A stretch of 64,000 nt of DNA from a virus. Positions 9,601-39,652 of this stretch are shown in pieces; within the stretch, counting starts at the first letter, position 1; each line of letters begins with the position of its first letter. Both the position numbers and the translations under genes were made by a program. The notes below the pieces were generated by a model that was given only the letters and a program-made list of their open reading frames with translations, did not search any database and had not been told where the DNA came from. Where the stretch lies: positions 3,498 to 67,497 of the IMG/VR virus record IMGVR_UViG_3300042691_015471; one strand, 5' to 3'.

Positions 9601-12600
9601 TTAAAGACTGGGGTATTGTATGGCATGAAGGTGCTCACCCGGTTATGAATATATTACGCAACACCAATACACCGTTGTACGATAAGATGGCAAAAGGCTT
9701 TACTGCTTTGGCCAAACAGGGTGGTGTGTTTGCTCAGGTTGCGAAGTGGGCAAAGGGAGATTACAATGGTGCAGCATCTGATGTACAAACAGATGAGGCC
9801 ATGGTTGAGACCATTTCATTGCTTGGCGATGGTAGGATTAAGTTGGCAGATATCCCAACAAGTTTCCGTCAGCAGGTTATTGATTTTGTCAACCAGGTGG
9901 CAGACTTCCTTGGTCTTGGTCAGATGTCAGACACTAGTGAAAGGGTGTTCATTCAGAAGGCTTCTCAGATTGCAGGAGCTCTCCGCTCGGGGGAAAGCAT
10001 TGAGTCTGTGGTAGGTGCTGAGAACGTAGGCATGACTCAGAATCCGTTTGCTCAGAAAAGAGACCAGATTACATCACAGCTACGTGACAGGTCGAGTTTT
10101 GATTTCTTGCAAGGGGATGCATTAAGTGTACAATCTGAGAATCCAAACAATATATACAATGCTATCAAGTTTGCCGATGAGTCAGGCTTTGATAAAAACA
10201 TAGACTTCAAGCTTGCTCTTCAAGAAAGGTTTAATACCCACTTGAAAGAACTTAAGAAAGCTTATGGTAAGGATTTTGAGCCCCTGCAATACAATGAGGC
10301 TGTGAAGAAATTCTACGTAGATGCCATTAGGGAGGAAGCTAAGAAGGGTATTCAAGATCACCCTGAGGCTATAGGTTGGTATGACGAAAAGACAAGGAAT
10401 GCTTTGTCGATCATATCTCTGATACATCCTGAGATTGCTACAAACATAGATGACCGTGCTGCATTTATTCTTCCATTAGCTATCACTTCAAATGGCAACC
10501 TTGTTGACAAGAACTTTGAATACGCTCTTGATCAGTATGAATACTTCAAAGCAAATAAAAGGTACAATGCAAAAGGTGAGTTTGGGGCACAGCAATCCGG
10601 TATCATTGCTTCATTAAATCTAATGAATGCAATCCTTGATGCTGGAATAAGTATGGAGGATTTGACAGATTACTTCACCACTATGCACAAGGCTGGTAAT
10701 CTTAAGTTCAAGATCAAGTCCGGAGGCAAGTCAAAAGACGTAGATCTTTCTGGAGGGGAGCTAGTAGATGAGGATGTGTTTGGTGCTTCAATCTTAGGTC
10801 CTAAGATAGGTAATGGATTCTACATGAACTTGTGGGGTGAGTTTAATCAGCTTACTATGGACAGGTGGTTTATGAGAACCTGGGGTAGGCTTGGTGGAAC
10901 ACTGATTGACTATGACAAGGGTCTAGTAAACGAGAATAAGAAAAGGCTTAGTGATGCATTGTCTGCAATTAAATCAGACCCTGAGTCGAAGAAGATACTG
11001 AAGGATGTGGTCGGATCCACTTCTGGCATGTCTGTTACTGACTTAGCGAATACCATCAAAAAGATATCTGCAGACAAGGTATCTCGGAGTAAGCTGACGA
11101 ACAATCCGCTTACAAACGAATTAAGGAAAGCTTCAAATACGCTTGTTGGAAACATGCTTGGAGAGGTGGAGCTGCCACGTCATGGAACAGAAAGAAAGTT
11201 CATAAGGGAAGTGTTCCGTGATGTTCAAAAAAAGCTTAAATTAGAGGACAATATAGATATCACTATTGCTGATCTTCAAGCGGTGTTGTGGTATCCCGAA
11301 AAGATATTATACGACTCATTCCAGAAAAACAAAACATTTGAACAAAATGCAGCAAGATATCAAGAAGGATCAGCCCCAGACTATCAAAATGCAGCAGCAG
11401 ATCTCGCAAGAGGAAGAGGATACACAGATGTCCAAATACAGGATAGTATCCGAAGAGGACAATCCGTTAGATTCTCTGACACCAGAGGAGATGCAGGAAT
11501 TAGCCAAGCAGATCGCACTCAGAATAAAGAAAGAATCTTCGGGGTCGTAAAGGACTTCAAATCTAAAAATGAAGTATCTCAAGAACGCAACTCATCTGTA
11601 TTTGCAGCACCGTTCTACGACCTGTCCCTGCGGGATCAGCCTGGTAATTTTACCACCAAAGCGGACGAAGCTCGGGGGACAGAAGCATATCAGCAGTACG
11701 AGAATGATATCAAGGAAGTTGCTCAGCTTCTTGGTATAAACCTAGAAGATGTTGAGAATCTTATTGGCGGTTTTGAAAACGAGCAGGGCAAGAAGATAGT
11801 TGAAGTTGCAGCCAAGAGTAATATTGAGGTTGATGATTTCAATAAGGCGATTCAGTTCGCTGCTATCCTTGGAGCGATTGCACCAGAGACTCAGGAGTCT
11901 ACCATTGCAGCAAGGTATGTAGAAGATGATACGCCTGACCATAACGCAGACGAGTATGTCATCCAGGTTAGTGATCCGGATCTTGCGATACAAGCGCTTA
12001 CAGACATTGGGGTGTACAACTTCAGTGTTAACGAAAAGACAAATGAGGTAACCCTACTCAATATTTTTGCCTACCCAACCGAGAATATTAAAGGTATAGT
12101 CAATAACTTTGCGTCTAAACTTAATGAATATGGAGTTGAATACACCCCTGCAACCAAGTCAGCCATCCAGTCCGAGTACATCGACTACAACAGAAGGCAA
12201 GACATTATTTCAAATATTTCAGGAGATGCCGTATACGGACAAGCGGGGCAAAGGCTTCGTGATGTCATCGCCAATGCAAGGCAAAGGAATGAACAGTTCA
12301 TCAAACAAAAGCAAGGACAACAAAGAAGATCAGCCGCTGTAACAGCTGAGATGGATTCTATAGTAGCTGATGCCAAAGCTAACGGCACCTACTTAAAAGC
12401 CCCTAACGGTAACGATACAAAGCTTACCCCCGATCAGTGGGCAACTACACGTACACAGAATTTCAAGAATTGGTTTGGCGATTGGGAGAATGATCCTGCC
12501 AACTCATCCAAGGTTGTGGACGAGAACGGTGAGCCGTTGGTTGTGTTTCATGGCACTGATAATACCTTTGATACTTTTGTCCCATCTACTGCACAGGGAT

Positions 12601-15600
12601 GGGGTAATGGCATTTACTTCACTGACAACAGGGAGCAGACTTCTGAGTTTGGGAAGAACACCGTTGAAGGATATCTCAGCATAAAGAATCCTATCACTAG
12701 TTCAAACTATTACAATACAAAGGAGGCTGTAAAAGGTACGAAAGCTTGGAGCAGTGCCACAGCTAGTCAGAGGAAAAGGTGGAATGACGAAGAGCTTGAG
12801 CTTGATTTTGATGATGCATTCCAGGAAGATATAAATCTATTGAATGCTGCTTGGAAGGAGCTCGGTTTTGATGGAATCATATTTGAAGGTAGCAATAGTA
12901 TTGACGGTATTGAATATGTTGCTTTCAATGCAAACCAAATCAAGTCTTCTACAGATAACTCTGGTGCATTCAGCACTACAGATAATAGAATACAAGAGAG
13001 AAGGTCTGCACCCAACGGTAAACCATCCAACCTTAATCCTAAACAATACGAGCAGGTAAGGACATCTGAGTTCAAGAACTGGTTTGGAGACTGGGAGAAT
13101 GATCCTAAAAATGCATCAAAGGTTGTTGATGAGAATGGAGAACCGTTGGTGGTGTATCATAACTCCCTCTTCAACAATATTGAAGAGTTTAAAGGATACG
13201 TTACATACTTTACTGATAACAAAGAATACGCAAAGACATTTAAGGGGATTGAGTTTCCAAATGAGACACAGTATGAAGCGTACCTAAATATTCGTAACCC
13301 GTACAACTCAACTAAACCAATTGCCGATGTACCTGAAGAGGTATTCAGAGAAGGTAAAATTGTAGCGCCAAGACTAGTAAAGAAATTTTTTGGTTCTGCT
13401 ATTGATGGGTTGATAGGTGTTGATGCTGGTCAAACAAAAGGGAAAACATATGTATCATTCAACCCCAACCAAATCAAATCCGCAACAGGTAACTCTGGCG
13501 CATTCAGCACTACAGATAACAGGATACAAGAAAGGAATTCAGCAGGAGTGACTGTATATCATGGTGGAGAAATTAGGAGTGCCAAAGATATAGATAACAG
13601 CATTCCGTTTTTTGTAACGGAGGATAAAACAGAGGCAGGGTACTATGCGAAAGGTAATAGAGGTGAGGTATCTGCATTTAAGATATCTGAGGATACGATA
13701 GCTGATGAAGACTTGGTTTACGATATCCTAAGAAAGTTAGGTTTTTCAGAAAACAAATTGTCTTATAATGTACATGAATTGGTTGACCCAAGGTTTGAAG
13801 AGTCATATATAGGCAAGGGAAATGTAGATAAACTTTTCAGTGAAATTAAGGATGCTGGGTTTAATGCCGTAAGATTTACTGACGCAGGGTTGGGAGCAAA
13901 AAAGTATGTTGAAAATATTGTTTTAGTTGACCCGAAGAATACGATAGCCCAGTTCAAAAACAGTTCAGTAGACCTTCTCAATGAAGGCATCCAGAACAGG
14001 ATGTCTGCAGCACGCATTACAAGTAAGGCTGTAAAGAATATCACAGATGCCATCACCAACCTGGGATATGGTCACCTCCCTGAGGATGTTCGGGAGAAGC
14101 TGAAGAAGAAGCAGCGCCTAATCGATGCAGATCTCAATGAGATGAATGTATTGTCACAGCGTTTGGCTAATGCTGTTAAGGAGGCTTATGGTAAGGACTA
14201 CAAGAAGCTTGACCAGGACACGCTCACTCTACTAGATAGTGCACTCAGAAACTTTGAGGGAATGAACATGAGGGAGAAGGCTGCACAGGCTAGTAAAATT
14301 CCTGATCCGATACTCTCTATATTAGAGCAAATGCGTGCGCAAGTAGATGCTATGTCTCTAAAGCTTATAGACATTGGCGTACTTGATGACAGCCTGGAAC
14401 CTGCGTTCGATGGCGATAAAGGATTAGGTGTTTACCTGACTAGGACATACAGGAAGTATGACGATCCGGAGTGGGTAAACAAAATCCCTGAGCCAGTCCG
14501 TCAGCGTGCCATACAGTACCTGAAGGCAAACAACTTCGTTAGGCAGTTCGATGCTCAAGGGAATGAGATTGATGAGAGGGAGTTAACCGATGCAGAGGTT
14601 GAAGGTTTGGTGAACTACATCGCCACCAACATGCAGCCGGTGATGGAAGGATTGTCTAGTGCGAATATGGGCAAGACCAAGGTGGACATCCTGAAAGGAA
14701 GGAAAGAGATCCCAGAAGAGATTAGGGACTTGATGGGTGAGTACAAAGATCCGATGGTAAACTTTGCCAAGTCAATGGCCAAGATGTCTAGCCTGGTGCA
14801 GACACATCAAACACTTAAGGCGATTGCCGAAGAGAATATGGGAACGCTCTTCTTCGAGCGACCAACCGGAACTCACTATGCTCCTGTGGCAGGTGAGAAC
14901 AAGAACTACCTGCAACCGTTGTCCGGATTATATACCACACCTGAGATTGCAGAAGCATTTGGGAAGGTTCAGTCAAGCATGCAAGGTGACGATGTCAACC
15001 AAAGATTCCTTAGGTTTTTAGCCGGGGTAAACGGTATTGCCAAGGTAGGTAAGACAGCATTGTCCCCTGCATCTTGGGTACGTAACGTAATTGGTGGTCA
15101 CGTCATGATGCTGAAGGACGGCCACATATTTGGCAATGGATATGCGGAAGGATGGAAGAGCGCAATTGGGTACTTCGCCAACAAGAGCAAAGACGATCCT
15201 GCCTTCCAGGCTAAGATCCGTGAGTACATCGAGCAGGGTATCCTGGGAGATGGTGTACAGGGTGGAGAGTTCAAGGCCATCATTAAAGCCGCACAGAAGC
15301 ACGAGAGTCCAGTCGAATGGTTGCAGAGTGATAGCATGCTTGGCAAGGCTGTCAGTGGCGTAAAAGGCTTCTATTCAGCTCAGGATGACATCTTCCGTGT
15401 GTATACATACGAGAATGAAAAGTCTAGGTTGGCTAAGCGCAAACCTAACATGACTGAAGAGCAGCTGCAAGCGGAGGCTTCAAGGAAAGCCAGGGCTACA
15501 TATCCTACCTATTCAGAGCTCCCTGAGATTATCCGTCAGTTGGCCAAGTTTATTCCAATCTCATCTTTCCCCGCATTTTCTGCGGAGCTTATAAGGACTA

Positions 15601-16544
15601 CCAAGAACTCTATTAAGATAGCATTTGAGGAGATCGCAGACCCTGACATGAGGGATGTAGGTTTCAAGCGTTTGGCAGGAGTGATCAGTGCCATTGGTTT
15701 TGGTAGCACCCTGGCCGGACTGAGTGCCATGCTTGTGGGTGTAGGAGATGAGGAAGAGAAGTCTATCAGAAGATACTTCCCAACCTGGAGCAAGAACAGT
15801 CCTGTAGTTTGGTTGGGTCGTGACGATAATGGCATGCCCAAGTATGTTGACCTTGGATTCTCAGATCCATTCTCATACTTCAAGAAGCCTGTGGTTGCAA
15901 TGACTGAGGATGCGCCAATGGGTGACAGAATTAAGAATGCTGTAGGCGAGGTTGCTGCTCCATTCGTATCTCCGGAAATCTTCTTCTCCGCTCTAGCCAA
16001 AGGTACCAAGAAGCTCAAAGAATCGGATGACTTGGATGAGGTGATGGGTAAGTATGCAGGACCGGTGTATGAGGCGCTTGAGCCTGGATTGGTGGCAAGC
16101 ATGAGGAGAATTGGTAAGGGATTGATGGGAGATGTGGACAGGTACGGACAGCAGTACGATCCTAGTCTTGAGCTCCTGGCATTCTTCTCAGGACAGCGTA
16201 TCAAAAAGATGGATGTACCTGTAGGCTTCAGCTTCAAGTCAAGGGATTTTGCCAACACAAAGCGTGACATCATGAGCGGTTACTATACAGAAAAAGCTAA
16301 GACTGTTGGTGATCCTGAGAAGCAAGCTGAGGAATTGGCAGATGCAAATGAGAAGCTAGAAAGATACTTCAACGAGTACAAAAAAGACTACGATGCTGCC
16401 ATGGTTTTGATGACCAGAAATATGACAGCTCGGGAGGCAAAGAAGATTCTGAAGAATACCATGAAGGATAGAAACATCCCTAGTGATTTCATAAAAGCTA
16501 TAGAGAAAGGAACCCAGTACCCTACGATTGAAGATGATAAATGA
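6609..16544 (+). CDS. Giant polyvalent virion protein (zincin HExxH peptidase, HhH-glycosylase-like domain, three ADP-ribosyltransferase-like modules, helical C-terminus)
   Basis: VWHEGAHP at ~9618. GWYD...GPKIG...TMDRWFMR...DLQAVLW at ~10370-11295. Twice FKNWFGDWENDP.N.SKVVDENGEPLVV(F/Y)H...NQIKS, plus a third VYHGG module. Confidence 0.75.
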   Translation: MPDPILDLILRRKAAKGKLNNQSSQTVTMMSPAISDDESSQTKLDLFDIDRKISMLGYNPNDAEQKLGDLPDNTPDFLVHDLLNIENPVDLIRKKAAIKWQAPLVKSVESILDPALRSKAMEEFDYIYKGITGAKGEKSNYYQNAISSTKAAVDIINKYNGSGDKDEMLENLRINSEYGLAQSLMQDPSAQQRWADIGLNPIQGIALDIKELFSPEGKGYKEQVVKKAVLPEAISEQNFKKAQLEREGISILGKEIDYLLESKSGAVKKADEFYKQNEGKLAELGELIKKDSKLSEEMKQNLTGFHTEYKQAIEGKDGDVFISPYNFDVLKAKVEDKTANASEVREYNNRVGKLNQIVSKYKGDFDAAKENNVEQNSAVREYNKIVNKIQESYQSVKDTGKLSAWAEYLAKQKGTLGERYPEYKQQELEGLVKDIAGDNVGLGKKTVFRYANSIGAETVDAIRKVWNNLTIWDGDKLRDVEMGDAYRRRIEDVIMGYETGTQMVKDERTVIPVVQKDIQDELNKIKNSNLSEEEKYQQNYKIVSKAFDDKKVQYVANPKYGKYNITADSVLNTVSSMSAQFVGQMVQTYLGGGFGNVSKARRLLTRGSTVFGQVFGREYDLAVQRGDSNPFEQASTKAGIEMLSEFVFDDVEFVKKMSPAFARIAGDMSQAEWKMLTSGKIKSNIGREIASSLEALFKEGTVEEGLAQLGGNFADKYMFGKDNDITEGLDVAVLAGTIGFAPMALIGLPLKYRSANMSDKLMMYQAGYKADQVIEELNRQVGYGAITAEEAKQRIEAVKTMKEVVGGMSMYDANGKPLTDNQKAQYAWNEYTKIKAKNIENLPEQQRQEVEQVAAEADQSSSNILNGTDNATYESTRPMQGMPAEGGSVQPQATVEGQQEEGQATQPTANVGYSDGSGQEVDIAEVPQGLTAIATKVIGDAINTAKSLVKTGIKVRVFQNQEDFERESAKLGQQARGQGVFMSDGKQVLINLSKINEVKDWGIVWHEGAHPVMNILRNTNTPLYDKMAKGFTALAKQGGVFAQVAKWAKGDYNGAASDVQTDEAMVETISLLGDGRIKLADIPTSFRQQVIDFVNQVADFLGLGQMSDTSERVFIQKASQIAGALRSGESIESVVGAENVGMTQNPFAQKRDQITSQLRDRSSFDFLQGDALSVQSENPNNIYNAIKFADESGFDKNIDFKLALQERFNTHLKELKKAYGKDFEPLQYNEAVKKFYVDAIREEAKKGIQDHPEAIGWYDEKTRNALSIISLIHPEIATNIDDRAAFILPLAITSNGNLVDKNFEYALDQYEYFKANKRYNAKGEFGAQQSGIIASLNLMNAILDAGISMEDLTDYFTTMHKAGNLKFKIKSGGKSKDVDLSGGELVDEDVFGASILGPKIGNGFYMNLWGEFNQLTMDRWFMRTWGRLGGTLIDYDKGLVNENKKRLSDALSAIKSDPESKKILKDVVGSTSGMSVTDLANTIKKISADKVSRSKLTNNPLTNELRKASNTLVGNMLGEVELPRHGTERKFIREVFRDVQKKLKLEDNIDITIADLQAVLWYPEKILYDSFQKNKTFEQNAARYQEGSAPDYQNAAADLARGRGYTDVQIQDSIRRGQSVRFSDTRGDAGISQADRTQNKERIFGVVKDFKSKNEVSQERNSSVFAAPFYDLSLRDQPGNFTTKADEARGTEAYQQYENDIKEVAQLLGINLEDVENLIGGFENEQGKKIVEVAAKSNIEVDDFNKAIQFAAILGAIAPETQESTIAARYVEDDTPDHNADEYVIQVSDPDLAIQALTDIGVYNFSVNEKTNEVTLLNIFAYPTENIKGIVNNFASKLNEYGVEYTPATKSAIQSEYIDYNRRQDIISNISGDAVYGQAGQRLRDVIANARQRNEQFIKQKQGQQRRSAAVTAEMDSIVADAKANGTYLKAPNGNDTKLTPDQWATTRTQNFKNWFGDWENDPANSSKVVDENGEPLVVFHGTDNTFDTFVPSTAQGWGNGIYFTDNREQTSEFGKNTVEGYLSIKNPITSSNYYNTKEAVKGTKAWSSATASQRKRWNDEELELDFDDAFQEDINLLNAAWKELGFDGIIFEGSNSIDGIEYVAFNANQIKSSTDNSGAFSTTDNRIQERRSAPNGKPSNLNPKQYEQVRTSEFKNWFGDWENDPKNASKVVDENGEPLVVYHNSLFNNIEEFKGYVTYFTDNKEYAKTFKGIEFPNETQYEAYLNIRNPYNSTKPIADVPEEVFREGKIVAPRLVKKFFGSAIDGLIGVDAGQTKGKTYVSFNPNQIKSATGNSGAFSTTDNRIQERNSAGVTVYHGGEIRSAKDIDNSIPFFVTEDKTEAGYYAKGNRGEVSAFKISEDTIADEDLVYDILRKLGFSENKLSYNVHELVDPRFEESYIGKGNVDKLFSEIKDAGFNAVRFTDAGLGAKKYVENIVLVDPKNTIAQFKNSSVDLLNEGIQNRMSAARITSKAVKNITDAITNLGYGHLPEDVREKLKKKQRLIDADLNEMNVLSQRLANAVKEAYGKDYKKLDQDTLTLLDSALRNFEGMNMREKAAQASKIPDPILSILEQMRAQVDAMSLKLIDIGVLDDSLEPAFDGDKGLGVYLTRTYRKYDDPEWVNKIPEPVRQRAIQYLKANNFVRQFDAQGNEIDERELTDAEVEGLVNYIATNMQPVMEGLSSANMGKTKVDILKGRKEIPEEIRDLMGEYKDPMVNFAKSMAKMSSLVQTHQTLKAIAEENMGTLFFERPTGTHYAPVAGENKNYLQPLSGLYTTPEIAEAFGKVQSSMQGDDVNQRFLRFLAGVNGIAKVGKTALSPASWVRNVIGGHVMMLKDGHIFGNGYAEGWKSAIGYFANKSKDDPAFQAKIREYIEQGILGDGVQGGEFKAIIKAAQKHESPVEWLQSDSMLGKAVSGVKGFYSAQDDIFRVYTYENEKSRLAKRKPNMTEEQLQAEASRKARATYPTYSELPEIIRQLAKFIPISSFPAFSAELIRTTKNSIKIAFEEIADPDMRDVGFKRLAGVISAIGFGSTLAGLSAMLVGVGDEEEKSIRRYFPTWSKNSPVVWLGRDDNGMPKYVDLGFSDPFSYFKKPVVAMTEDAPMGDRIKNAVGEVAAPFVSPEIFFSALAKGTKKLKESDDLDEVMGKYAGPVYEALEPGLVASMRRIGKGLMGDVDRYGQQYDPSLELLAFFSGQRIKKMDVPVGFSFKSRDFANTKRDIMSGYYTEKAKTVGDPEKQAEELADANEKLERYFNEYKKDYDAAMVLMTRNMTAREAKKILKNTMKDRNIPSDFIKAIEKGTQYPTIEDDK

Positions 16545-20416: not shown

Positions 20417-20437
20417 CCCCCGAGCTCGGGGGTTTTT
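20417..20437 (+). terminator. Perfect palindrome CCCCCGAGCTCGGGGG followed by a T-tract, between convergent genes
   Basis: 16-bp palindrome plus TTTTT, 6 nt after the stop at 20410. Confidence 0.7.
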
Positions 20438-31422: not shown

Positions 31423-32727
31423 TTATTCGCCCAGGAAGTCTTTGTAGTAGTTCTTGACCTCGCTGTTGAAATGCTTCTCCACAAAGGCTACATAGCGCTC
31501 AAAGGACATGCTCCTGTCGCTGTGGCCGGAGCAGAACTTGATGTGCCTTTCGGAAACCTTGTGGAAGATCATGGTCGTGATGGCGGTCTTCCTCAGCATG
31601 TGCGGGTGGATGTGCTTGTACATCTCCGCTACTTCTGTGGTCTCTTCACCATATACCCCGAACTTCTTTACCGTGGCGATCTGCTGCATTTCAGGATAAA
31701 GGGAAAATACTGTCTTGATATCCCTGTACAGATTGGAATAGTAGGCATTCTTCTGTGTGAAGATCCTACCATACCTGGTCAGGTTCTCTCGATATATTTT
31801 CTCCAAAAACTTGGGAATGGGCACGTTTGTGTACTCCCTGGTCTTGCCATTCATCTTAGACAGGAACATGGCATCCTTGGTGATGTGCAGGTCATTTACA
31901 GACATGTTCATTGCGTCTTTGATCCTCATGGTGGTGATCAGGATGGTGGCTGATATCTCCCAAGCATACCTCATGCTATCGTCCAGGCTATTGTAGGTCT
32001 TTTCCTCGGTTAGGAAATGCTTGACAAAAGTTGGTTCTAGAACAACCACCGGATTGGGGTCAGCCTTGTAGCTGATGATCTTAGGGAGCTGCAGGTACAG
32101 GTGGTCCTTCCAGTAGTTCACCATGATGGCGATATTGTGCAGGTAGACGGTTCGGGTGCTCATGAACATCCCCTCGTCAATCATGTAGTCATCAAATCCC
32201 CTAAAGTAGTTATTCCACTTGTCGGTGATCTCCCGCTTCCTAGATGCCTCGTCCCGGGGATTGATTGCCATTTCCATAAGATCTAGGCTCCCGGCTATCT
32301 CACTGAATGTAGCAAGCCTTTTTAAAGCAGATGCGTAAAGCATCAAGGTTTTTTCAGAGTAACCCCTGTTCCCCTTCGCTTTAATTTCCCCTCGAACGGC
32401 CATCTGAACATACCTCTTCAGCATATCCACTAAATCATAGGAATCAGTGTTGACTGGTTCTTCCTCCCGGTACTCTGGGGCATATAGCTCCTTGATCTTG
32501 GCAGTGTTCCCTCGGTATACCATGTAGAGGTCGGTGAGCTTAACTTTTTGGCGGTCTATCTCATTGTTGAGACTATCCACAAGCGGGTCTTTACCTACAA
32601 ACCTACCTTTATGAAACTTGAGGTAACCTGGGACCTTAATGCCTGTAGATAGTCTCAATGAGACATCTGTTCCATGAGTAATCCTGGCTTGGATTTTGCT
32701 GCCTCTCTGGCTGAAAGAAACTGTCAT
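31423..32727 (-). CDS. int: Tyrosine recombinase/integrase
   Basis: Catalytic set TMRIKD, GKT, HMLRKT, SGH, ERYV; N-terminal arm-binding-like RLSTGIKV. Start placed at ATG 32727 behind an AC-rich leader. Confidence 0.88.
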   Translation of the reverse strand: MTVSFSQRGSKIQARITHGTDVSLRLSTGIKVPGYLKFHKGRFVGKDPLVDSLNNEIDRQKVKLTDLYMVYRGNTAKIKELYAPEYREEEPVNTDSYDLVDMLKRYVQMAVRGEIKAKGNRGYSEKTLMLYASALKRLATFSEIAGSLDLMEMAINPRDEASRKREITDKWNNYFRGFDDYMIDEGMFMSTRTVYLHNIAIMVNYWKDHLYLQLPKIISYKADPNPVVVLEPTFVKHFLTEEKTYNSLDDSMRYAWEISATILITTMRIKDAMNMSVNDLHITKDAMFLSKMNGKTREYTNVPIPKFLEKIYRENLTRYGRIFTQKNAYYSNLYRDIKTVFSLYPEMQQIATVKKFGVYGEETTEVAEMYKHIHPHMLRKTAITTMIFHKVSERHIKFCSGHSDRSMSFERYVAFVEKHFNSEVKNYYKDFLGE

Positions 32728-32759
32728 ATGTGTTGATTTAAGTATGGTGAACAATAGTT

Positions 32760-34591: not shown

Positions 34592-34814
34592 GTTCGGATA
34601 CCCCGTCCCCGGCTTTGGTTTCAAAATAAAGGCTGCGTACATGAGCGCCCAGATCCATATCGTTGGGCGTATTGTAGATGAGATCTACTGGCACTGCGAT
34701 AAAGTCCATTGTATGGCACGAATACGTGCGTTTTTGAGAGTTATAAGACACAATAAAAAAGCCCCCACCATAAAAATGGCGAGGGGATAAACCTGCCTGC
34801 GAAAGCTGGGTTAG

Positions 34815-34943
34815 TAGTCAGGACAGGATTCGAACCTGCAAGAGAGTCTGATTGGTGAGCATGCGATACCTTTACTCCTCTCTAAGTGGACGCCCTCAGT
34901 ATTTGGGTTTTCCTTTAGCGTTTACCAATTTCGCCACCTGACT
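34815..34943 (-). tRNA. tRNA-like RNA (pseudo-tRNA) with an expanded, non-canonical anticodon/variable region
   Basis: Acceptor AGTCAGG/CCTGACT, D-arm TGGCGAAATTGGTAAACGC, T-arm GCAGG-TTCGAAT-CCTGT; ~75 nt between the arms with no 7-nt anticodon loop. Confidence 0.75.
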
Positions 34944-34988
34944 AAAAAACCCCAAGCCTAGAAAAGCTCGGGGATAAAAAAACACACA

Positions 34989-35213
34989 CTAAAACAATTT
35001 CTTCACGGCCTCTTTTCTCCAATCTTCATTGATGTGTGGCTCAATGTCTTCCCATAGGAAAGTCTTGAGGAGGGACCTAATTTTTTGCTCCTGCCTATAT
35101 CCTTCGTCCCACTTACGCTGCTCGTCAATCATGGACCAGTAGTAGTCGTGGTTGTGGATCAGGTTGATCAGTTCATTCATTTCATTCATGGCGCTTAGTT
35201 TTCGTATGCCCAT
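34989..35213 (-). CDS. Hypothetical early protein
   Basis: HDYYWSMIDE...W..G pattern; start probably ~35189. Confidence 0.55.
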   Translation of the reverse strand: MGIRKLSAMNEMNELINLIHNHDYYWSMIDEQRKWDEGYRQEQKIRSLLKTFLWEDIEPHINEDWRKEAVKKLF

Positions 35214-35389
35214 TTTTTAACGATGAGCTCTTCGGTTGAATAATCGATGTAGACTACCTTGTCCCCAATGTGGATGTACATAGCATGCGGGCTGCGGATG
35301 CTGATGTGGGTATCCCAATTTTCCGGATCAATGTTGATGTCTACAAACCCGTTTTTCTGTTCTGTCACGTTGATGTCAATTGATTTCAT
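35195..35389 (-). CDS. Hypothetical early protein (64 aa)
   Basis: ATG 35389 preceded by AAAACCACACACC. Confidence 0.6.
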   Translation of the reverse strand: MKSIDINVTEQKNGFVDINIDPENWDTHISIRSPHAMYIHIGDKVVYIDYSTEELIVKKWAYEN

Positions 35390-35405
35390 GGTGTGTGGTT
35401 TTGAT

Positions 35406-35454
35406 TGGGAGCTGGCCCTGGTAGCGAACCAGGTGCGGTCATTCCTGCCAGCTC
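35406..35454 (-). ncRNA. tRNA-like acceptor/T-arm minihelix, copy A
   Basis: GAGCTGGC..CCTGG-TTCGCTA-CCAGG-GCCAGCTC-CCA. Confidence 0.7.
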
Positions 35455-35460
35455 GGGGGG

Positions 35461-36171
35461 TTATACAAGGGAGTGACGTATCTCTTCTAGGGTAGTACCC
35501 ATCTCTTCTGCCAACCACTCTGTGAAGGCTTCAAGCTTAGACTCCCGGATGATAACATCTGAGGAGGTAGAGAAGACATTGGAGGTTAGGCCGAAAGAAA
35601 AGATCAGTTCAAAGGGGCATTCAACTTCGCCATCGGCAATGGAGTCGACAAAGTCGTTGAACTTGTGCTTCCAGGTTACATCTGACCAACGGCCTGTGGA
35701 CCATCCGCTTGCCAAGGTGGTGTATCCATCTTCAACAACGGTATCCCAATATCCTCTCCAGCCATCTGTGCGCACGTAGTTGAAACCTTCAACGCCATTG
35801 GGTGAAGCCTCTTCCCACCATTCAGTATCCCTGAAGCCGAACTCCTGGCACCAGATGTACTTTTTGTTTTCGCCATTCTGGCAAACGATCACCGTGTTGG
35901 CATATTTCCAGGCTTCGCTCTCGCAGCTCTCGCAGTACACCTCGCCACTCTTGGTGAAGTAGACAGGATCACGGTCTTCATTGATCTCTTTTTTACAGCA
36001 GGAGCACAGCGTGTAAAAGTCTGTGATGATGCCGTCCAGGCCATACTCAAACGTGTAGCCATGCTCTTCAACTTGTTTCTTGAGCTCTTCGAGCTTGTCG
36101 TATCCTGTTTCATCTCCGAAATTTTCAATCAGGATCTGTACTTCGCTAGGCAGGTTTTCAAAATTGTTCAT
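35461..36171 (-). CDS. Acidic early protein with CxxC/CxxC zinc ribbon
   Basis: CSCC...YCESC; very Glu/Asp-rich. Confidence 0.65.
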   Translation of the reverse strand: MNNFENLPSEVQILIENFGDETGYDKLEELKKQVEEHGYTFEYGLDGIITDFYTLCSCCKKEINEDRDPVYFTKSGEVYCESCESEAWKYANTVIVCQNGENKKYIWCQEFGFRDTEWWEEASPNGVEGFNYVRTDGWRGYWDTVVEDGYTTLASGWSTGRWSDVTWKHKFNDFVDSIADGEVECPFELIFSFGLTSNVFSTSSDVIIRESKLEAFTEWLAEEMGTTLEEIRHSLV

Positions 36172-36184
36172 GTTAGTGTGTGTT

Positions 36185-36235
36185 TGGTGAGAACCTGTTG
36201 CGGGAATCGAACCCGCATGATGACCATCACAGGTT
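36185..36235 (-). ncRNA. tRNA-like acceptor/T-arm minihelix, copy B
   Basis: AACCTGT..TGCGGG-TTCGATT-CCCGCA-ACAGGTT-CTCACCA. Confidence 0.72.
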
Positions 36236-36240
36236 GGTGG

Positions 36241-36519
36241 CTACTGGCAGCAAAGCTCCCAGGGCTGGAGGCCTTCAAGGCTTGACTCGTCCAGGCCCAT
36301 GGACTGCAGGATGAAGGCTGCAAGCTTCCTGCGTACCGGTGTACTGCTGAGGTCATTGGATCCGATGGCATCGGCTACATCTGAGCCTCTCATGCCTAGC
36401 GTCCTAGCGCAGAACTTAGAGTCTTGGCCTAGGTGGAAGGATCCATACTTGGTTACCAGGGTCCAATCGTGGCCGTAGTAGGTTTCTGAGGTCTCAATGA
36501 TGGGTTTTGAAATTTTCAT
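36241..36519 (-). CDS. Hypothetical early protein
   Basis: 92 aa, AC-rich leader. Confidence 0.6.
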   Translation of the reverse strand: MKISKPIIETSETYYGHDWTLVTKYGSFHLGQDSKFCARTLGMRGSDVADAIGSNDLSSTPVRRKLAAFILQSMGLDESSLEGLQPWELCCQ

Positions 36520-36530
36520 GGTGTGTTGTT

Positions 36531-36586
36531 TGGTGAGGACTGCCTCCGGGAGCGAGCCGGAATCACTTCCAAAAGTGGGGCAGTTC
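36531..36586 (-). ncRNA. tRNA-like acceptor/T-arm minihelix, copy C
   Basis: GAACTGCC..TCCGG-CTCGCTC-CCGGA-GGCAGTCC-TCACCA (one mismatch in the outer stem). Confidence 0.65.
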
Positions 36587-36611
36587 GGGGGTTAAACTCT
36601 ATAGTAGAGAG

Positions 36612-36769
36612 CTACTGACAAAAAGGATCCTGTAGAGCGCCAATAATAGCAGCACCAAGAACAAGAGCAATTGCAAGGCGTATAATCTGTTTCATTGTTT
36701 CCGTTTTAGACTAGCGTAAAAAATAATGTTTGCGAATAGAAAGCCAAAGAGGGTGGTGAAGAGGATCAT
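36612..36769 (-). CDS. Two tiny hydrophobic ORFs (36692-36769, 25 aa; 36612-36695, 27 aa)
   Basis: MILFTTLFGFLFANIIFYASLKRKQ and MKQIIRLAIALVLGAAIIGALQDPFCQ, chained by ATGA overlaps. Confidence 0.5.
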
Positions 36770-36993
36770 GGCTCATATTTTTCAAAGTGATCATTAAGCT
36801 TGTCAACCTCTACAGGGCACTTGCCATTGAGAACCTCGTTTAGGGTTACAGCCGCAAAAAGATTAAGCTGATAGACAACGTGGCTTCTTTTTAGCTCACT
36901 TGTGAGAGCTTCAACAGTGATGGGGTAATGCTTGGCGTAATTGTCCATGGCCATGATGGCCTGAGGCTTGAGCCTCTGATACAAATTTTTCAT
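36766..36993 (-). CDS. Hypothetical early protein
   Basis: MKNLYQRLKP...; AC-rich leader. Confidence 0.6.
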   Translation of the reverse strand: MKNLYQRLKPQAIMAMDNYAKHYPITVEALTSELKRSHVVYQLNLFAAVTLNEVLNGKCPVEVDKLNDHFEKYEP

Positions 36994-37005
36994 ATGTGTG
37001 TGATT

Positions 37006-37058
37006 TGATGAGGAACTGGAGGCAGTATCGCTCTGCCTTCGCTCATTGCTTCCAGTTC
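37006..37058 (-). ncRNA. tRNA-like acceptor/T-arm minihelix, copy D
   Basis: GAACTGGA..GGCAG-AGCGATA-CTGCC-TCCAGTTC-CTCATCA. Confidence 0.65.
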
Positions 37059-37065
37059 GGGGGGA

Positions 37066-37383
37066 TTATCTGAGATTAACCTCAGCCGTCATACGTGCAA
37101 CCTCTTCAGGTGACTCATCACCATAGGGTAAGTAGCAGTCATATGCTAGAACATCGTAGAAGACCTTGAGGGCAACAACATAGTTTCTAGGCGAAATAGT
37201 TTTGTAGAAGCTCAGCACCCTTGTAGATAATTCGTTGTAGTAGTAGCCATCAAACAGGCCGTACATTTGATTTATCATTTCTTTTGGGGCGTTATCTAGC
37301 ATCATCTCACTGATCAGGTAATTAACCCGGCTCAATGTCTCTGCTGTCATGTTTGCGTGGCGGTCAAATGTTCTGTAGTTCAT
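37066..37383 (-). CDS. Hypothetical early protein
   Basis: 105 aa, AC-rich leader, directly after the hammerhead. Confidence 0.65.
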   Translation of the reverse strand: MNYRTFDRHANMTAETLSRVNYLISEMMLDNAPKEMINQMYGLFDGYYYNELSTRVLSFYKTISPRNYVVALKVFYDVLAYDCYLPYGDESPEEVARMTAEVNLR

Positions 37384-37396
37384 GTTCGTGTGTTTT

Positions 37397-37448
37397 AGTG
37401 TTTCGTCCTTCCGGGACTCATCGGTACGGGGAAAAACCCGTAGACACT
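37397..37448 (-). ncRNA. Type III hammerhead ribozyme (U4C core variant)
   Basis: Minus strand AGTGTC^TACGGG-TTTTTC-CCCGTA-CCGATGA-GTCC-CGGAA-GGAC-GAAA-CACT; stems I, II and III all Watson-Crick paired; GUC cleavage triplet. Confidence 0.88.
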
Positions 37449-37864
37449 CACCTTGGCTGCCTTTAGCCTCAGGACTACACTCAACACAAACGATAGATCA
37501 GGATGTGGTGGTGAAGGCAGCTAGGTGTTGTGTTACTCATTAAGTGGCGGTTAGGACTCGCTCCTCATAAAGAGGCTTTGTGGGTTGCTTTCGCAGTGCC
37601 GTTATTGGGGCCATGTGGCCGAGCGTGACGTGGCTTCTCTCCGCTTAATTTTCACTACCGTATTTTCAAAGACCTGCAAAACCAATGACTAAAACAATGA
37701 TTTCGAGAGTAAAATTGAGTAGAAAATATTTTTCCGCAAAATGTGGATTAAAATATGACAGTAAAAAACGCTAGACAAATCCTCTACAAGTCAATAGAAT
37801 CAACAACGAAAACGTTTTCGTACTTTTTCGTAAAAATGTTTTTTGATAGTTAATGTGCAAAACT

Positions 37865-38865: not shown

Positions 38866-39040
38866 TGTAGGGGATCAGGGATGTATAGGTAAGGGTTAAG
38901 GGTTTATATTGTCAAGGGGATCAATGTTGGGGATCATGGGTTAAGGGGCTATGAGGTCAGTGATAGGTTAAAGGGGGTTAGGCATGGGTTAGGTTAAAGG
39001 TTGGGTTGTGTTGGGAGGAAGGGAGGAAGGGGGGTTGTTG
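38866..39040 (+). repeat. G-tract-rich low-complexity non-coding segment
   Basis: Recurrent GGG(G) runs with TTAAGGG, GGGGATC and GGGTT units; very few C on +. Confidence 0.7.
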
Positions 39041-39652
39041 TGGTCTTGCGTATACATGCAGGAACCCCGGCCTCCTCCTCAGCTTTCCCCTGGTTCATAG
39101 GCTTCCTTTTCCCTTCTTTTGTCACAGCGTCCGGCTTCCTCTTCCGGGTCAGGAAGGATAAAGTGAATACAGTATTGGCTTTCAGCGTTTCCGACCATTT
39201 ATGCTACATAAATTTTGTGTGACAATTATCGATTTTGGAATGCCCAAATTGACCCCCACCCGGTCGAATTTCAGCGTTTCACTTCGGTCATCGGCCCAGG
39301 CGTTTTTAATATATTACCCCCACTTCTCGTCCACACACAACCCATATAAAAACTCACGGCTTTATGAATAGTGCTGTGGATTCATTACAGGCGATTCTAG
39401 GACCTCAATTCTTCTACACTATGTGCAACCCTGTTCCCCAGTGGGGTTGCTTTACACCGCTAGCTAACGATCTAGAGGAGGGGTGCGCTTCGTAATCCTA
39501 GTCGATACTATCTCAAGGCAATTAGAGAGGCGTTCCTGAGTTTTCGATCCACCGGCCTAGTGGCTTGTACAGCAAATGTAAACGGCCAACTCTCTAAAAT
39601 ATTTTGTTATCATCAATTGTTCATAAGTTTCAAAACATAATAGAGTGCATTT

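What the first reader, a model, noticed from the sequence alone, without database searches (positions are those of the whole stretch)
34815..37650. Early operon punctuated by an RNA-processing array: a hammerhead ribozyme, four tRNA-like minihelices and a pseudo-tRNA
Seen, reading the minus strand in transcript order: hammerhead (37397-37448), gene, minihelix D, three short genes, minihelix C, gene, minihelix B, gene, minihelix A, two genes, pseudo-tRNA (34815-34943). The hammerhead and each minihelix end ~11-17 nt before an ATG, joined by an AAA..CACAC leader, so the ribozyme occupies the same slot as the minihelices. Established: hammerheads self-cleave, and RNase P and RNase Z recognise the coaxial acceptor/T-arm stack. 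Inference: two interchangeable devices (self-cleavage and host tRNA-maturation mimicry) cut the early polycistronic RNA into short mRNAs with structured, protected 5' ends. This would parallel RNase III processing of T7 early RNA but use different chemistry. I do not know of a described phage system with this layout.
Basis: partly seen in the sequence, partly recalled or inferred. Interest (0 to 1): 0.92.

Follow-up and report, generated by a model that had tools for sequence, protein, structure and literature searches.

The report
tRNA-mimic and ribozyme punctuated phage operon
An uncultured phage separates the small genes of one operon with stripped-down tRNA look-alikes and a hammerhead ribozyme, and because relatives put self-cutting ribozymes in the same slots, these elements are probably cut sites that divide one long message into single-gene messages.

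Summary
The window has a type III hammerhead (Rfam 38.6 bits, below the family cut-off, core U4 replaced by C). It also has four tRNA-like minihelices and a 129-nt tRNA-like gene, all on the minus strand at the stated places.

The minihelices belong to a conserved RNA family that is absent from Rfam. I found over 80 copies in about 20 other uncultured viral contigs, always in one-strand arrays. Pairing is 99.3% with heavy compensatory change. The helix stack is a fixed 13 bp. Copies start about 7 nt after a stop codon and end 19 nt before the next ATG.

Nine arrays were compared. The slot between a conserved leader RNA and the first gene holds a type III hammerhead in six, a minihelix in two and a twister-like ribozyme in one. 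Five internal slots hold type I hammerheads, and four of these cut 19 nt before the ATG.

This supports interchangeable RNA-cutting devices, with the minihelices as substrates of host RNase P and/or RNase Z. No RNA ends were available, so no cutting is shown. Hammerhead punctuation of phage operons is known (Perreault 2011). The minihelix family appears undescribed. Earlier follow-ups in this scan reached similar readings on other phage DNA.

The 11-nt word heading the minihelices also lies antisense inside late genes. That is unexplained.

The parts
37451..37864 (-). Long non-coding leader upstream of the array. A palindrome CGAAAACGTTTTCG lies at 37807-37820. The 3' domain (about 37444-37541) is a conserved three-helix junction.
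   Evidence: Alignment of six leaders. Eight 3' domains folded together gave 13 pairs, 5 of them with compensatory change. Pattern scan found further homologues.
37395..37450 (-). Type III hammerhead with core variant CCGAUGA. The predicted cut is after C at 37443.
   Evidence: Rfam 38.6 bits, E 4.5e-6, below gathering 48.5. All three stems are perfect. Five relatives carry a canonical-core homologue in the same slot.
37066..37383 (-). ORF of 105 aa with no known family.
37004..37063 (-). Minihelix D. The paired core is 37013-37058 (8-bp acceptor plus 5-bp T-like stem, loop AGCGAUA). A C5 run precedes it.
   Evidence: R1 68.0 bits. G+1 lies 7 nt after the stop codon, and the core ends 19 nt before the ATG.
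36612..36993 (-). Three short ORFs: 75 aa (36766-36993), 25 aa (36692-36769) and 27 aa (36612-36695). The last two are hydrophobic.
   Evidence: One small ORF has a homologue in G002.
36529..36591 (-). Minihelix C. It has an extra hairpin and an A.C mismatch at the second acceptor pair.
   Evidence: R1 59.4 bits. 5 nt after the stop codon and 18 nt before the ATG.
36241..36519 (-). ORF of 92 aa with no known family.
36183..36240 (-). Minihelix B. It has a canonical T loop UUCGAUU and a D-loop-like AUGGU linker. Its acceptor is AACCUGU/ACAGGUU, two compensatory changes away from the family consensus.
   Evidence: R1 59.0 bits. Alignment. 5 nt after the stop codon and 20 nt before the ATG.
35461..36171 (-). 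ORF of 236 aa with no known family. It has a homologue in G003 that is also preceded by a minihelix.
35400..35459 (-). Minihelix A. Acceptor GAGCUGGC/GCCAGCUC, T-like loop UUCGCUA.
   Evidence: R1 67.2 bits. Fold z-score -3.5. 6 nt after the stop codon and 19 nt before the ATG.
34989..35389 (-). Two ORFs: 64 aa (35195-35389) and 74 aa (34989-35213). The second is conserved in G001-G003.
34950..34973 (-). Intrinsic-terminator-like hairpin plus U run that closes the array.
   Evidence: The homologous hairpin in G001, G002, G003, G004 and L009 has a covarying stem.
34815..34943 (-). tRNA-like gene. Acceptor, D arm and T arm are intact, and 64 nt replace the anticodon region. It starts directly after the terminator's U run.
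   Evidence: Rfam tRNA 36.3 bits. ARAGORN finds none. The same scaffold occurs with middles of 24, 28 and 66 nt in relatives.
34762..34785 (-). Second terminator-like hairpin, behind the tRNA-like gene.

Best explanation
The minus-strand block from about 37.86 to 34.95 kb is one transcription unit. It consists of a roughly 400-nt structured leader followed by nine small genes of unknown function.

The junctions carry RNA-cutting devices that can replace one another:
- self-cleaving ribozymes (type III hammerhead here; type I hammerhead and a twister-like RNA in relatives);
- tRNA-like minihelices, which consist of a 7-8 bp acceptor-like stem stacked on a 5-6 bp T-like arm with a 7-nt loop.

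Inferred: the minihelices are cut by the host's tRNA end-processing enzymes, RNase P at the 5' side of G+1 and/or RNase Z just 3' of the stem. The head device would free the leader RNA. The internal devices would split the polycistronic RNA into single-gene or few-gene messages that start with an unstructured A/C-rich leader of about 19 nt.

Shown here: the family, its covarying fold, its exact placement, and the exchange of device types in homologous slots.

Inferred only: that the transcript is polycistronic and early, that cutting happens, and which enzyme does it.
For: (1) Fold. In 37 aligned copies, 99.3% of cells pair. All 5 T-stem pairs and 3 of 7 acceptor pairs show changes on both sides. 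0 of 500 shuffles reach the observed score, and slid controls pair at 24-46%. Copies that were not picked by the sequence pattern show compensatory acceptor stems: CACCUCC/GGAGGUG, GAACUUG/CAAGUU and AACCUGC/GCAGGUU.

(2) tRNA likeness. 17 of 52 distinct copies have the T loop TTCGATT, and 51 of 52 have C and G at loop positions 3-4. 50 of 52 have a 13th pair, made either by the acceptor or by the T stem, so the stack length is fixed. Relatives hold real tRNAs and a 60-nt tRNA without an anticodon arm next to the arrays.

(3) Placement. G+1 lies a median 7 nt after the stop codon (48 measured of 53). The stem ends a median 19 nt before the ATG (50 measured; 21 are exactly 19).

(4) Slot exchange. 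The head slot holds a type III hammerhead in the window, G001, G004, G005, L093 and L098 (all stems perfect and covarying). It holds a minihelix in G002 and G003. It holds a twister-P1-like RNA in L009 (47.5 bits, E 8e-9, below gathering 67.2). Five internal slots hold canonical type I hammerheads, and 4 of the 5 cut exactly 19 nt before the ATG. That is the same distance as the minihelix 3' end.

(5) Arrays. There are 4-8 copies within 2-4 kb on one strand in each of five whole relatives. No terminator-like site lies inside the window's array.

(6) Established knowledge, recalled and not tested here: RNase P and RNase Z accept acceptor/T-arm minihelices. Seen in the literature: hammerheads flank genes in prophage operons (PMC3088659, passages), and tRNA-like t-elements define plant mitochondrial mRNA ends (PMC1920247, listing and abstract start).
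Against: - No RNA ends are known. No RNA run holds the stretch.
- Only B has a canonical T loop. A, C and D lack the U54/A58 pair (loop list).
- The stack is 13 bp, not the 12 bp of ordinary tRNA. The base at -1 is C, and no CCA follows.
- The acceptor sequence is nearly invariant (G6-C55 in 36 of 37 copies; four pairs never vary). Part of this comes from my search pattern, but it also fits a sequence-specific reader other than RNase P.
- The word CCCCCGARCUG is kept where there is no minihelix. It also occurs antisense in late genes, so it has a role of its own.
- 17 of 52 copies have one unpaired acceptor position as aligned, mostly an A.C. G.U pairs are rare, so wobble pairs do not favour the sense strand.
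- The window's own hammerhead has C at core position 4 and may be slow or dead.
- Single-sequence fold energies of B and C are ordinary.
Confidence: 0.6

Rival explanations
1. The reader is sequence-specific, not tRNA enzymes. A phage or host protein, or a pairing RNA, recognises CCCCCGARCUG at gene ends. The tRNA-like fold only presents or buffers that word. Cutting, termination or protection depends on the word.
For: - The 11-mer occurs 13 times in the 67.5-kb genome (1 forward, 12 reverse; reversed-pattern control 0). With one mismatch there are 37 copies against 4.2 expected.
- It stands after stop codons without a minihelix, behind the wHTH-like gene in the window, G001, G002, G003 and G005.
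- It stands 8-14 nt upstream of 3 of 5 type I hammerheads.
- Outside the arrays it is antisense to the gene in 27 of 30 in-ORF copies in four genomes, in all three frames.
Against: - Copies without the word keep the fold and the placement: window B, the head minihelices of G002 and G003, L043:188 and L077:6192.
- The T arm covaries strongly, and nothing in this reading needs a T arm.
- Ribozymes in the same slots point to cutting inside the device, not at the word.
- This reading can hold together with the main one.
Confidence: 0.15
2. The elements are uncut structural modules. They are compact folds set a fixed distance upstream of each start codon. They would insulate translation initiation from upstream structure or ribosomes, act as a standby or ribosome-recruiting site in a host that does not use Shine-Dalgarno pairing, or block 5'-3' or 3'-5' decay.
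For: The distance to the ATG is fixed (mode 19 nt), just outside a ribosome footprint. The leaders are A/C-rich with no Shine-Dalgarno motif. Device ends of type III hammerheads lie 11-15 nt before the ATG and that of the twister-like RNA lies 19 nt before it.
Against: The ribozymes in equivalent slots keep complete catalytic cores while their stems vary, so catalysis itself is selected there. A pure insulator would not need a T-loop-like hairpin or a fixed 13-bp stack.
Confidence: 0.12
3. The elements are DNA-level cassette borders. The inverted repeats GAACTG...CAGTTC would be recombination sites (integron attC-like or T4 PeSL-like) that shuffle small genes, perhaps with the phage's tyrosine recombinase.
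For: Conserved inverted ends surround a variable middle, between variable genes of unknown function. A tyrosine-recombinase-like gene lies at 31423-32754. The 5' word is genome-wide.
Against: - The conserved T-loop sequence and the AUGGU linker make sense only as RNA.
- The elements occur in one orientation only, co-directional with the genes and the ribozymes.
- The ends do not fit the attC core pattern (recalled).
- The recombinase lies 2 kb outside the array.
- Element subtypes travel with their neighbouring genes, as expected from vertical descent.
Confidence: 0.05
4. The elements are decaying tRNA genes with no present function.
For: Real tRNAs and an anticodon-less tRNA lie beside the arrays in relatives.
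Against: 85 model hits, 44 of them in nine compared arrays, with maintained pairing through compensatory change, a fixed stack length and placement precise to a nucleotide.
Confidence: 0.03

Closest known systems
Clustered hammerhead ribozymes flanking genes in prophage operons (Perreault et al. 2011, PMC3088659; passages read)
   Same: Several hammerheads sit between single genes or short gene blocks of phage transcripts. Cleavage of such arrays was shown in vitro for three bacterial cases. The role proposed there is processing of long phage RNAs into gene-length messages. One haloarchaeal virus hammerhead lies 13 nt before a start codon.
   Different: Here most slots hold tRNA-like minihelices, not ribozymes. 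Three device types replace one another in one homologous slot. Nothing here was tested at the bench.
Mitochondrial tRNA punctuation and plant mitochondrial t-elements (Forner et al. 2007, PMC1920247; search listing and start of abstract only. The punctuation model itself is recalled.)
   Same: tRNAs or tRNA-like structures lie between coding regions of polycistronic RNA. Cuts by RNase P and RNase Z are taken to define mRNA ends.
   Different: That system is organellar, not a phage of bacteria. Those elements are tRNAs or tRNA-sized. Here they are 45-55-nt acceptor/T-arm modules in arrays, with a nearly constant acceptor sequence and a fixed distance to the start codon.
Minihelix model substrates of RNase P and RNase Z, and the mascRNA of MALAT1 (recalled, no call)
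   Same: An acceptor stem stacked on a T arm is enough for recognition by tRNA end-processing enzymes. A tRNA-like module embedded in a longer RNA directs its 3' end formation.
   Different: The stack here is 13 bp. No CCA follows. C stands at -1. Most copies lack the U54/A58 T-loop pair. Cleavage is untested.
RNase III processing of phage T7 early polycistronic RNA (recalled, no call)
   Same: A host endonuclease cuts hairpins between early genes of one long phage transcript.
   Different: The enzyme class and the RNA signal differ. The T7 sites are not exchangeable with ribozymes.
Stoperator sites of cluster A mycobacteriophages (recalled; also named in earlier scan note e1-5853995)
   Same: An asymmetric short word is spread over a phage genome with its orientation tied to the direction of transcription. 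This resembles the CCCCCGARCTG word here.
   Different: Those are repressor sites in intergenic DNA. Here the word lies inside ORFs on the antisense strand. In the early array it lies on the sense strand as part of an RNA fold. No binding protein is known.

Membership tests
Hammerhead ribozyme, type III (Rfam RF00008) | Catalytic core CUGANGA ... GAAA with a C3-G8 pair and U4 | tested here: not met
   The window element reads CCGAUGA, with C at position 4; the rest of the core is present. Five homologues in relatives have the full core.
Hammerhead ribozyme, type III (Rfam RF00008) | Three stems around the core, stems I and II closed by loops, NUH cleavage triplet | tested here: met
   Stem III 4/4, stem I 6/6, stem II 4/4, GUC site. 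The stems covary among six homologues.
Hammerhead ribozyme, type III (Rfam RF00008) | Score at or above Rfam's gathering threshold | tested here: not met
   38.6 bits against 48.5. Relatives score 45.3, 44.4, 42.0 and 26.4 bits, also below.
Hammerhead ribozyme, type III (Rfam RF00008) | Self-cleavage | not testable with these tools
   Needs in vitro transcription with Mg2+.
tRNA (Rfam RF00005), for 34815-34943 | Acceptor stem, D arm and T arm of a cloverleaf | tested here: met
   Rfam 36.3 bits, above gathering 29. Model positions 1-26 and the T arm and acceptor align at high posterior probability.
tRNA (Rfam RF00005), for 34815-34943 | Anticodon arm with a 7-nt loop, so that it can decode | tested here: not met
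   64 nt stand in place of the 18 model positions. ARAGORN finds no tRNA. Relatives carry the same scaffold with middles of 24, 28 and 66 nt.
Pre-tRNA-like substrates of RNase P / RNase Z | Acceptor stem coaxial with a T stem, 7-nt T loop, single-stranded 5' leader | tested here: met
   12 modelled pairs at 99.3% pairing. A 13th pair is present in 50 of 52 copies, and the loop is 7 nt. A C5 leader precedes the stem.
Pre-tRNA-like substrates of RNase P / RNase Z | Canonical T-loop sequence (U54, U55, C56, purine 57, A58) and an elbow partner | tested here: inconclusive
   TTCGATT and its close variants, with an AUGGU linker, occur in about half of the copies. In the window only B has them. C56 and G57 are present in 51 of 52.
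Pre-tRNA-like substrates of RNase P / RNase Z | Cleavage by the enzymes at G+1 and after the discriminator | not testable with these tools
   No RNA run holds the stretch. Needs enzyme assays or end mapping.
tRNA punctuation / t-elements | tRNA-like elements lie between coding regions of one polycistronic transcript | tested here: inconclusive
   The position between ORFs is shown. No terminator-like site lies inside the array. A single transcript is inferred, not shown.
Twister ribozyme type P1 (RF03160), in relative L009 | Match to the family model at gathering score | tested here: not met
   47.5 bits against 67.2, E 8e-9 in 2.6 kb, with four non-standard pairs marked. I call it twister-like only.
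Integron attC sites | Conserved core and inverse core sites, function as folded single-stranded DNA, integron integrase next to the array | tested here: not met
   The ends GAACTG/CAGTTC do not fit the core pattern as I recall it. The only recombinase-like gene is a generic phage integrase match 2 kb away. The T-loop conservation is RNA-like.

The most novel reading that the evidence does not exclude
A group of freshwater phages, probably of Bacteroidota, uses a modular RNA punctuation code. Each slot can be filled by any of at least four cutting devices: type III hammerhead, type I hammerhead, twister-like RNA, or tRNA-like minihelix. The minihelix is a new RNA class that borrows host RNase P and RNase Z.

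A separate 11-nt word, CCCCCGARCUG, marks gene ends in the array RNA. It is kept out of sense messages and enriched on their antisense strand. It would therefore be a strand-discriminating RNA signal for cutting, termination or pairing with the complementary word in late messages.

The freed leader RNA and the excised minihelices may be functional small RNAs in their own right.
Probability: 0.25. Interest if true: 0.9.

Novelty: new variant of a known kind. Interest (0 to 1): 0.8.

Why it matters
What genomically encoded self-cleaving ribozymes do in bacteria and phages is called a long-standing open question (review PMC6765202, passages read).

Here two unrelated ribozyme folds and a tRNA mimic fill the same slot in related phages. 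This argues from comparison alone that the selected property is an RNA cut at a set distance from the start codon.

It also names a simple, testable system. If confirmed, it would show that phages use the host's tRNA-processing enzymes as mRNA-processing enzymes, as mitochondria do. It would add a new structured RNA family. It would also give compact natural parts for separating genes in synthetic operons.

Tried and rejected
- DNA search of 34700-37800 against GenBank phages found no match (blastn).
- The nearest named phages by terminase are Flavobacterium and Cellulophaga phages at 28-32% identity.
- The family model found nothing in the first 50 kb of Flavobacterium phage elemoA 7-9A or of MW202828.1. 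The rest of those two records was not searched.
- Rfam gave no family for minihelices A, C and D at E up to 10. For B it gave only two weak partial hits: Plastid-ycf2 on the other strand (23.1 bits) and a 17-nt tmRNA T arm.
- No RNA holder was listed for the stretch. I did not lay reads, because only DNA contigs were offered.
- I tested whether the antisense copies of the word are hidden minihelices. Only 2 of 27 have an exact complement of the stem strand within 65 nt downstream, so I rejected this.
- I tested whether the word is a peptide motif. All three frames are used, so I rejected this.
- I tested whether its strand bias is absolute. The strand flips with gene direction, so I rejected this.
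- I considered that the leader might be a known ribozyme or an RNase P RNA. Rfam gave no match.
- Many pattern hits were chance: 19 of 36 loci (judged by eye), 11 of 16, and 57 of the 69 new loci given to the model.
- For alignment A1 I dropped two regex hits (window 51911 and L013 5794) and identical duplicates, and I added window B by hand.
- Literature searches for a description of tRNA-like punctuation in phages found none. Supplements could not be seen. The supplementary alignments and figures of PMC3088659 might show similar neighbours.
- One search was an unfinished script. One search ended in an error after its first table, and redid the second part.

Full report
WHAT THE WINDOW IS. 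The window is bases 3498-67497 of a 67,497-bp virus record with direct terminal repeats. It encodes a terminase, a portal protein, a primase-helicase, a RecE-like exonuclease, a Rad52-like protein, an integrase-like recombinase and a 3311-aa polyvalent protein with an ADP-ribosyltransferase domain. The nearest named phages by terminase are Flavobacterium and Cellulophaga podophages, at 28-32% identity. A Bacteroidota host is therefore likely but not shown. The start regions are A/C-rich without Shine-Dalgarno motifs, which fits such a host.

THE OBSERVATION.
- hammerhead;
- gene of 105 aa;
- minihelix D;
- three short genes (75, 25 and 27 aa);
- minihelix C;
- gene of 92 aa;
- minihelix B;
- gene of 236 aa;
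- minihelix A;
- two genes (64 and 74 aa);
- terminator-like hairpin;
- tRNA-like gene;
- second terminator-like hairpin.

Rfam at its gathering thresholds reports only the tRNA-like gene: 34815-34943, 36.3 bits, with 64 nt in place of the anticodon region. ARAGORN reports no tRNA. In E-value mode Rfam adds Hammerhead_3 at 37395-37450, 38.6 bits against a threshold of 48.5, E 4.5e-6. My parse shows perfect stems I, II and III, a GUC site and the GAAA box, but C instead of U at core position 4. Seven of the ten proteins tested in and around the block have no PHROGs match, and seven have no Pfam match, at E 0.01.

THE MINIHELICES ARE A REAL, CONSERVED RNA FAMILY. A pattern taken from A, C and D found 36 stretches in the viral contig collection. 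By eye, 17 of them carry the same kind of element, several in arrays. I aligned 37 distinct copies. On the structure of a 7-bp acceptor-like stem plus a 5-bp T-like stem:
- 99.3% of cells pair;
- all five T-stem pairs and three acceptor pairs show changes on both sides;
- no shuffle of 500 reaches the observed covariation score;
- sliding the partner by 1-3 columns drops pairing to 24-46%.

The near invariance of the acceptor sequence is partly forced by my pattern. However, the covariance model R1 then found copies that lack the pattern, and these have fully compensated acceptor stems. In the window, searched with filters off, only A-D score high (59-68 bits), and the next hit has 20.6 bits.

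Five whole relatives have 4-8 copies each, always within 2-4 kb on one strand. Twelve fetched loci gave 49 hits. A second pattern scan followed by the model gave 36 more hits in 12 of 69 new loci.

Across 52 distinct copies:
- the loop is 7 nt, with C and G at positions 3-4 in 51;
- the commonest loop is the tRNA T loop TTCGATT (17 copies);
- 50 copies have a 13th pair, made either by an eighth acceptor pair or by a sixth T-stem pair, so the coaxial stack is constant.

One subclass, which includes window B, joins the stems by an AUGGU-containing linker that resembles a D loop. Others, which include A, C and D, carry a small hairpin there. Placement is exact. The first paired G lies a median 7 nt after the upstream stop codon. 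The stem ends a median 19 nt before the next ATG. For A-D the values are 5-7 and 18-20 nt.

WHAT FILLS THE SAME SLOTS IN RELATIVES. All arrays are preceded by a long non-coding leader with conserved blocks. Its 3' domain is a small junction of helices with some compensatory change. A pattern from it found three more arrays. Between this leader and the first gene stand:
- a type III hammerhead in the window, G001, G004, G005, L093 and L098, where every stem is perfect and different in sequence, and the core is canonical in all but the window (Rfam scores);
- a minihelix with a different, covarying acceptor sequence in G002 and G003;
- a twister-P1-like RNA in L009 (47.5 bits, E 8e-9, below the family threshold).

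Inside the arrays, five slots (one each in G001, L009 and L093; two in L098) hold type I hammerheads with canonical cores and covarying stems. Four of the five cut exactly 19 nt before the ATG, and the fifth cuts 22 nt before it. The minihelix stem ends at the same 19 nt. A cut at or just after the end of the stem would therefore give the same message start that the type I hammerhead makes by itself.

In the nine arrays, the devices at the head slot (type III hammerhead, twister-like RNA) cut at their own 5' side. This would free the leader RNA. The ribozymes in internal slots cut at their 3' side. A minihelix could be cut on both sides.

MECHANISM. The ribozymes keep their catalytic cores while everything else varies, so cutting is what selection keeps in these slots. 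The minihelices share slot, orientation and spacing with them. They retain just the parts of a tRNA that RNase P and RNase Z are known to read (recalled knowledge). The most likely reading is that the host's tRNA end-processing enzymes cut them, and that the long transcript is thereby divided.

That the block is one transcript is inferred from gene spacing, one strand, the absence of terminator-like sites inside the array, and a conserved covarying terminator at its end. That it is an early transcript is inferred from its position next to a divergent control region and upstream of the replication genes.

The points against this reading are listed in the Against line. The main ones are:
- there are no RNA data;
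- the T loops of A, C and D are not canonical;
- the stack is 13 bp;
- no CCA follows;
- the acceptor sequence is nearly constant;
- the window's own hammerhead has a doubtful core.

THE WORD CCCCCGARCTG. The five C and the first six bases of the acceptor stem form a word that occurs 13 times in this genome against 0 for the reversed control. It is similarly common in five relatives.

Outside the arrays, copies inside ORFs are antisense to the gene in 27 of 30 cases in four genomes. They flip strand with gene direction and use all three frames. They are not hidden minihelices. The word also stands after stop codons where no minihelix follows, and upstream of three type I hammerheads. It forms the 5' half of several terminator stems.

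It is therefore a separate signal. I cannot say what reads it. Possibilities are an RNA signal that must stay out of sense messages, pairing between array RNA and the complementary word in late messages, or a protein site.

THE tRNA-LIKE GENE. Its acceptor, D arm and T arm are tRNA-like. The same scaffold occurs in relatives with middles of 24, 28 and 66 nt. ARAGORN reads one of these as a CUA-anticodon tRNA. Other relatives have a tRNA-Trp or a 60-nt tRNA without an anticodon arm at the place behind the array's terminator. In the window it begins right after the U run of the terminator-like hairpin. It cannot decode as written. Whether it is made by read-through and serves as one more processing site is open.

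COMPARISON AND NOVELTY. Hammerheads that flank genes in prophage operons, and the idea that they cut long phage RNAs into gene-length messages, are in print (PMC3088659). tRNA punctuation and t-elements are the organellar counterpart (PMC1920247). I found no paper describing tRNA-like minihelices between phage genes or their exchange with ribozymes. Rfam 15 has no such family.

Earlier follow-ups of this scan reported the same kind of layout on other phage DNA. Those are unchecked AI notes, and my tests here agree with them. I class the finding as a new variant of a known kind: a known principle, with a new RNA family and a new setting.

Noticed in passing
whole window, e.g. 6027, 8730, 18113, 26219, 51942, 60680, 61346, 62720: The word CCCCCGARCTG is strongly over-represented. 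Inside ORFs it lies antisense to the gene in 27 of 30 copies over four related genomes, in all three frames. Sense late messages therefore carry its complement.
   Followed up: partly
37451-37864 (-); homologues in L075, L076, L077, L078, L079, L009, L093, L098: A conserved structured leader RNA of roughly 400 nt lies upstream of every array. Its invariant single-stranded blocks are AGUAAC, GAUYUAUC and a NUGA-looped hairpin, and a long-range helix covaries. It matches no Rfam family. The head device would release it as a separate RNA.
   Followed up: partly
37807-37820: The perfect palindrome CGAAAACGTTTTCG at the start of the leader region is conserved in G001 and G004. It looks like an operator next to the array's promoter.
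   Followed up: no
L009 7657-7721 (-): A twister-P1-like RNA (47.5 bits, below gathering 67.2) sits where the window has its hammerhead.
   Followed up: partly
L075 (G001), L009, L093, L098: Five canonical type I hammerheads lie in internal slots of related arrays. Rfam scores them below threshold (23.5-24.5 bits) or misses them.
   Followed up: yes
34815-34943 (-); L013 4133, L027 7069, L142 2666: One tRNA scaffold (same acceptor and T arm) carries very different middles of 24, 28, 66 and 79 nt in related phages, as if the anticodon region were a cargo site.
   Followed up: partly
38880-39100 (-): A C-rich stretch with repeated CCCTTAACC-like and CCTTCCTCCC words lies upstream of the wHTH-like gene, in the divergent region between early and late genes. 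It may be an origin or a control region.
   Followed up: no
20418-20431: The palindrome CCCCCGAGCTCGGGGG, flanked by A/T runs, looks like a two-way terminator where the convergent gene blocks meet. It is built from the same word.
   Followed up: no
L093 1859-2960, L076 3430-3487, L077 3827-3885: Some minihelices are followed by CCAAUGC and a further small hairpin before the A/C-rich leader. In these the ATG lies 33-36 nt from the stem.
   Followed up: no
6609-16544 (+): A 3311-aa polyvalent protein with an ADP-ribosyltransferase domain (Pfam ART-PolyVal, E 1.5e-33).
   Followed up: no
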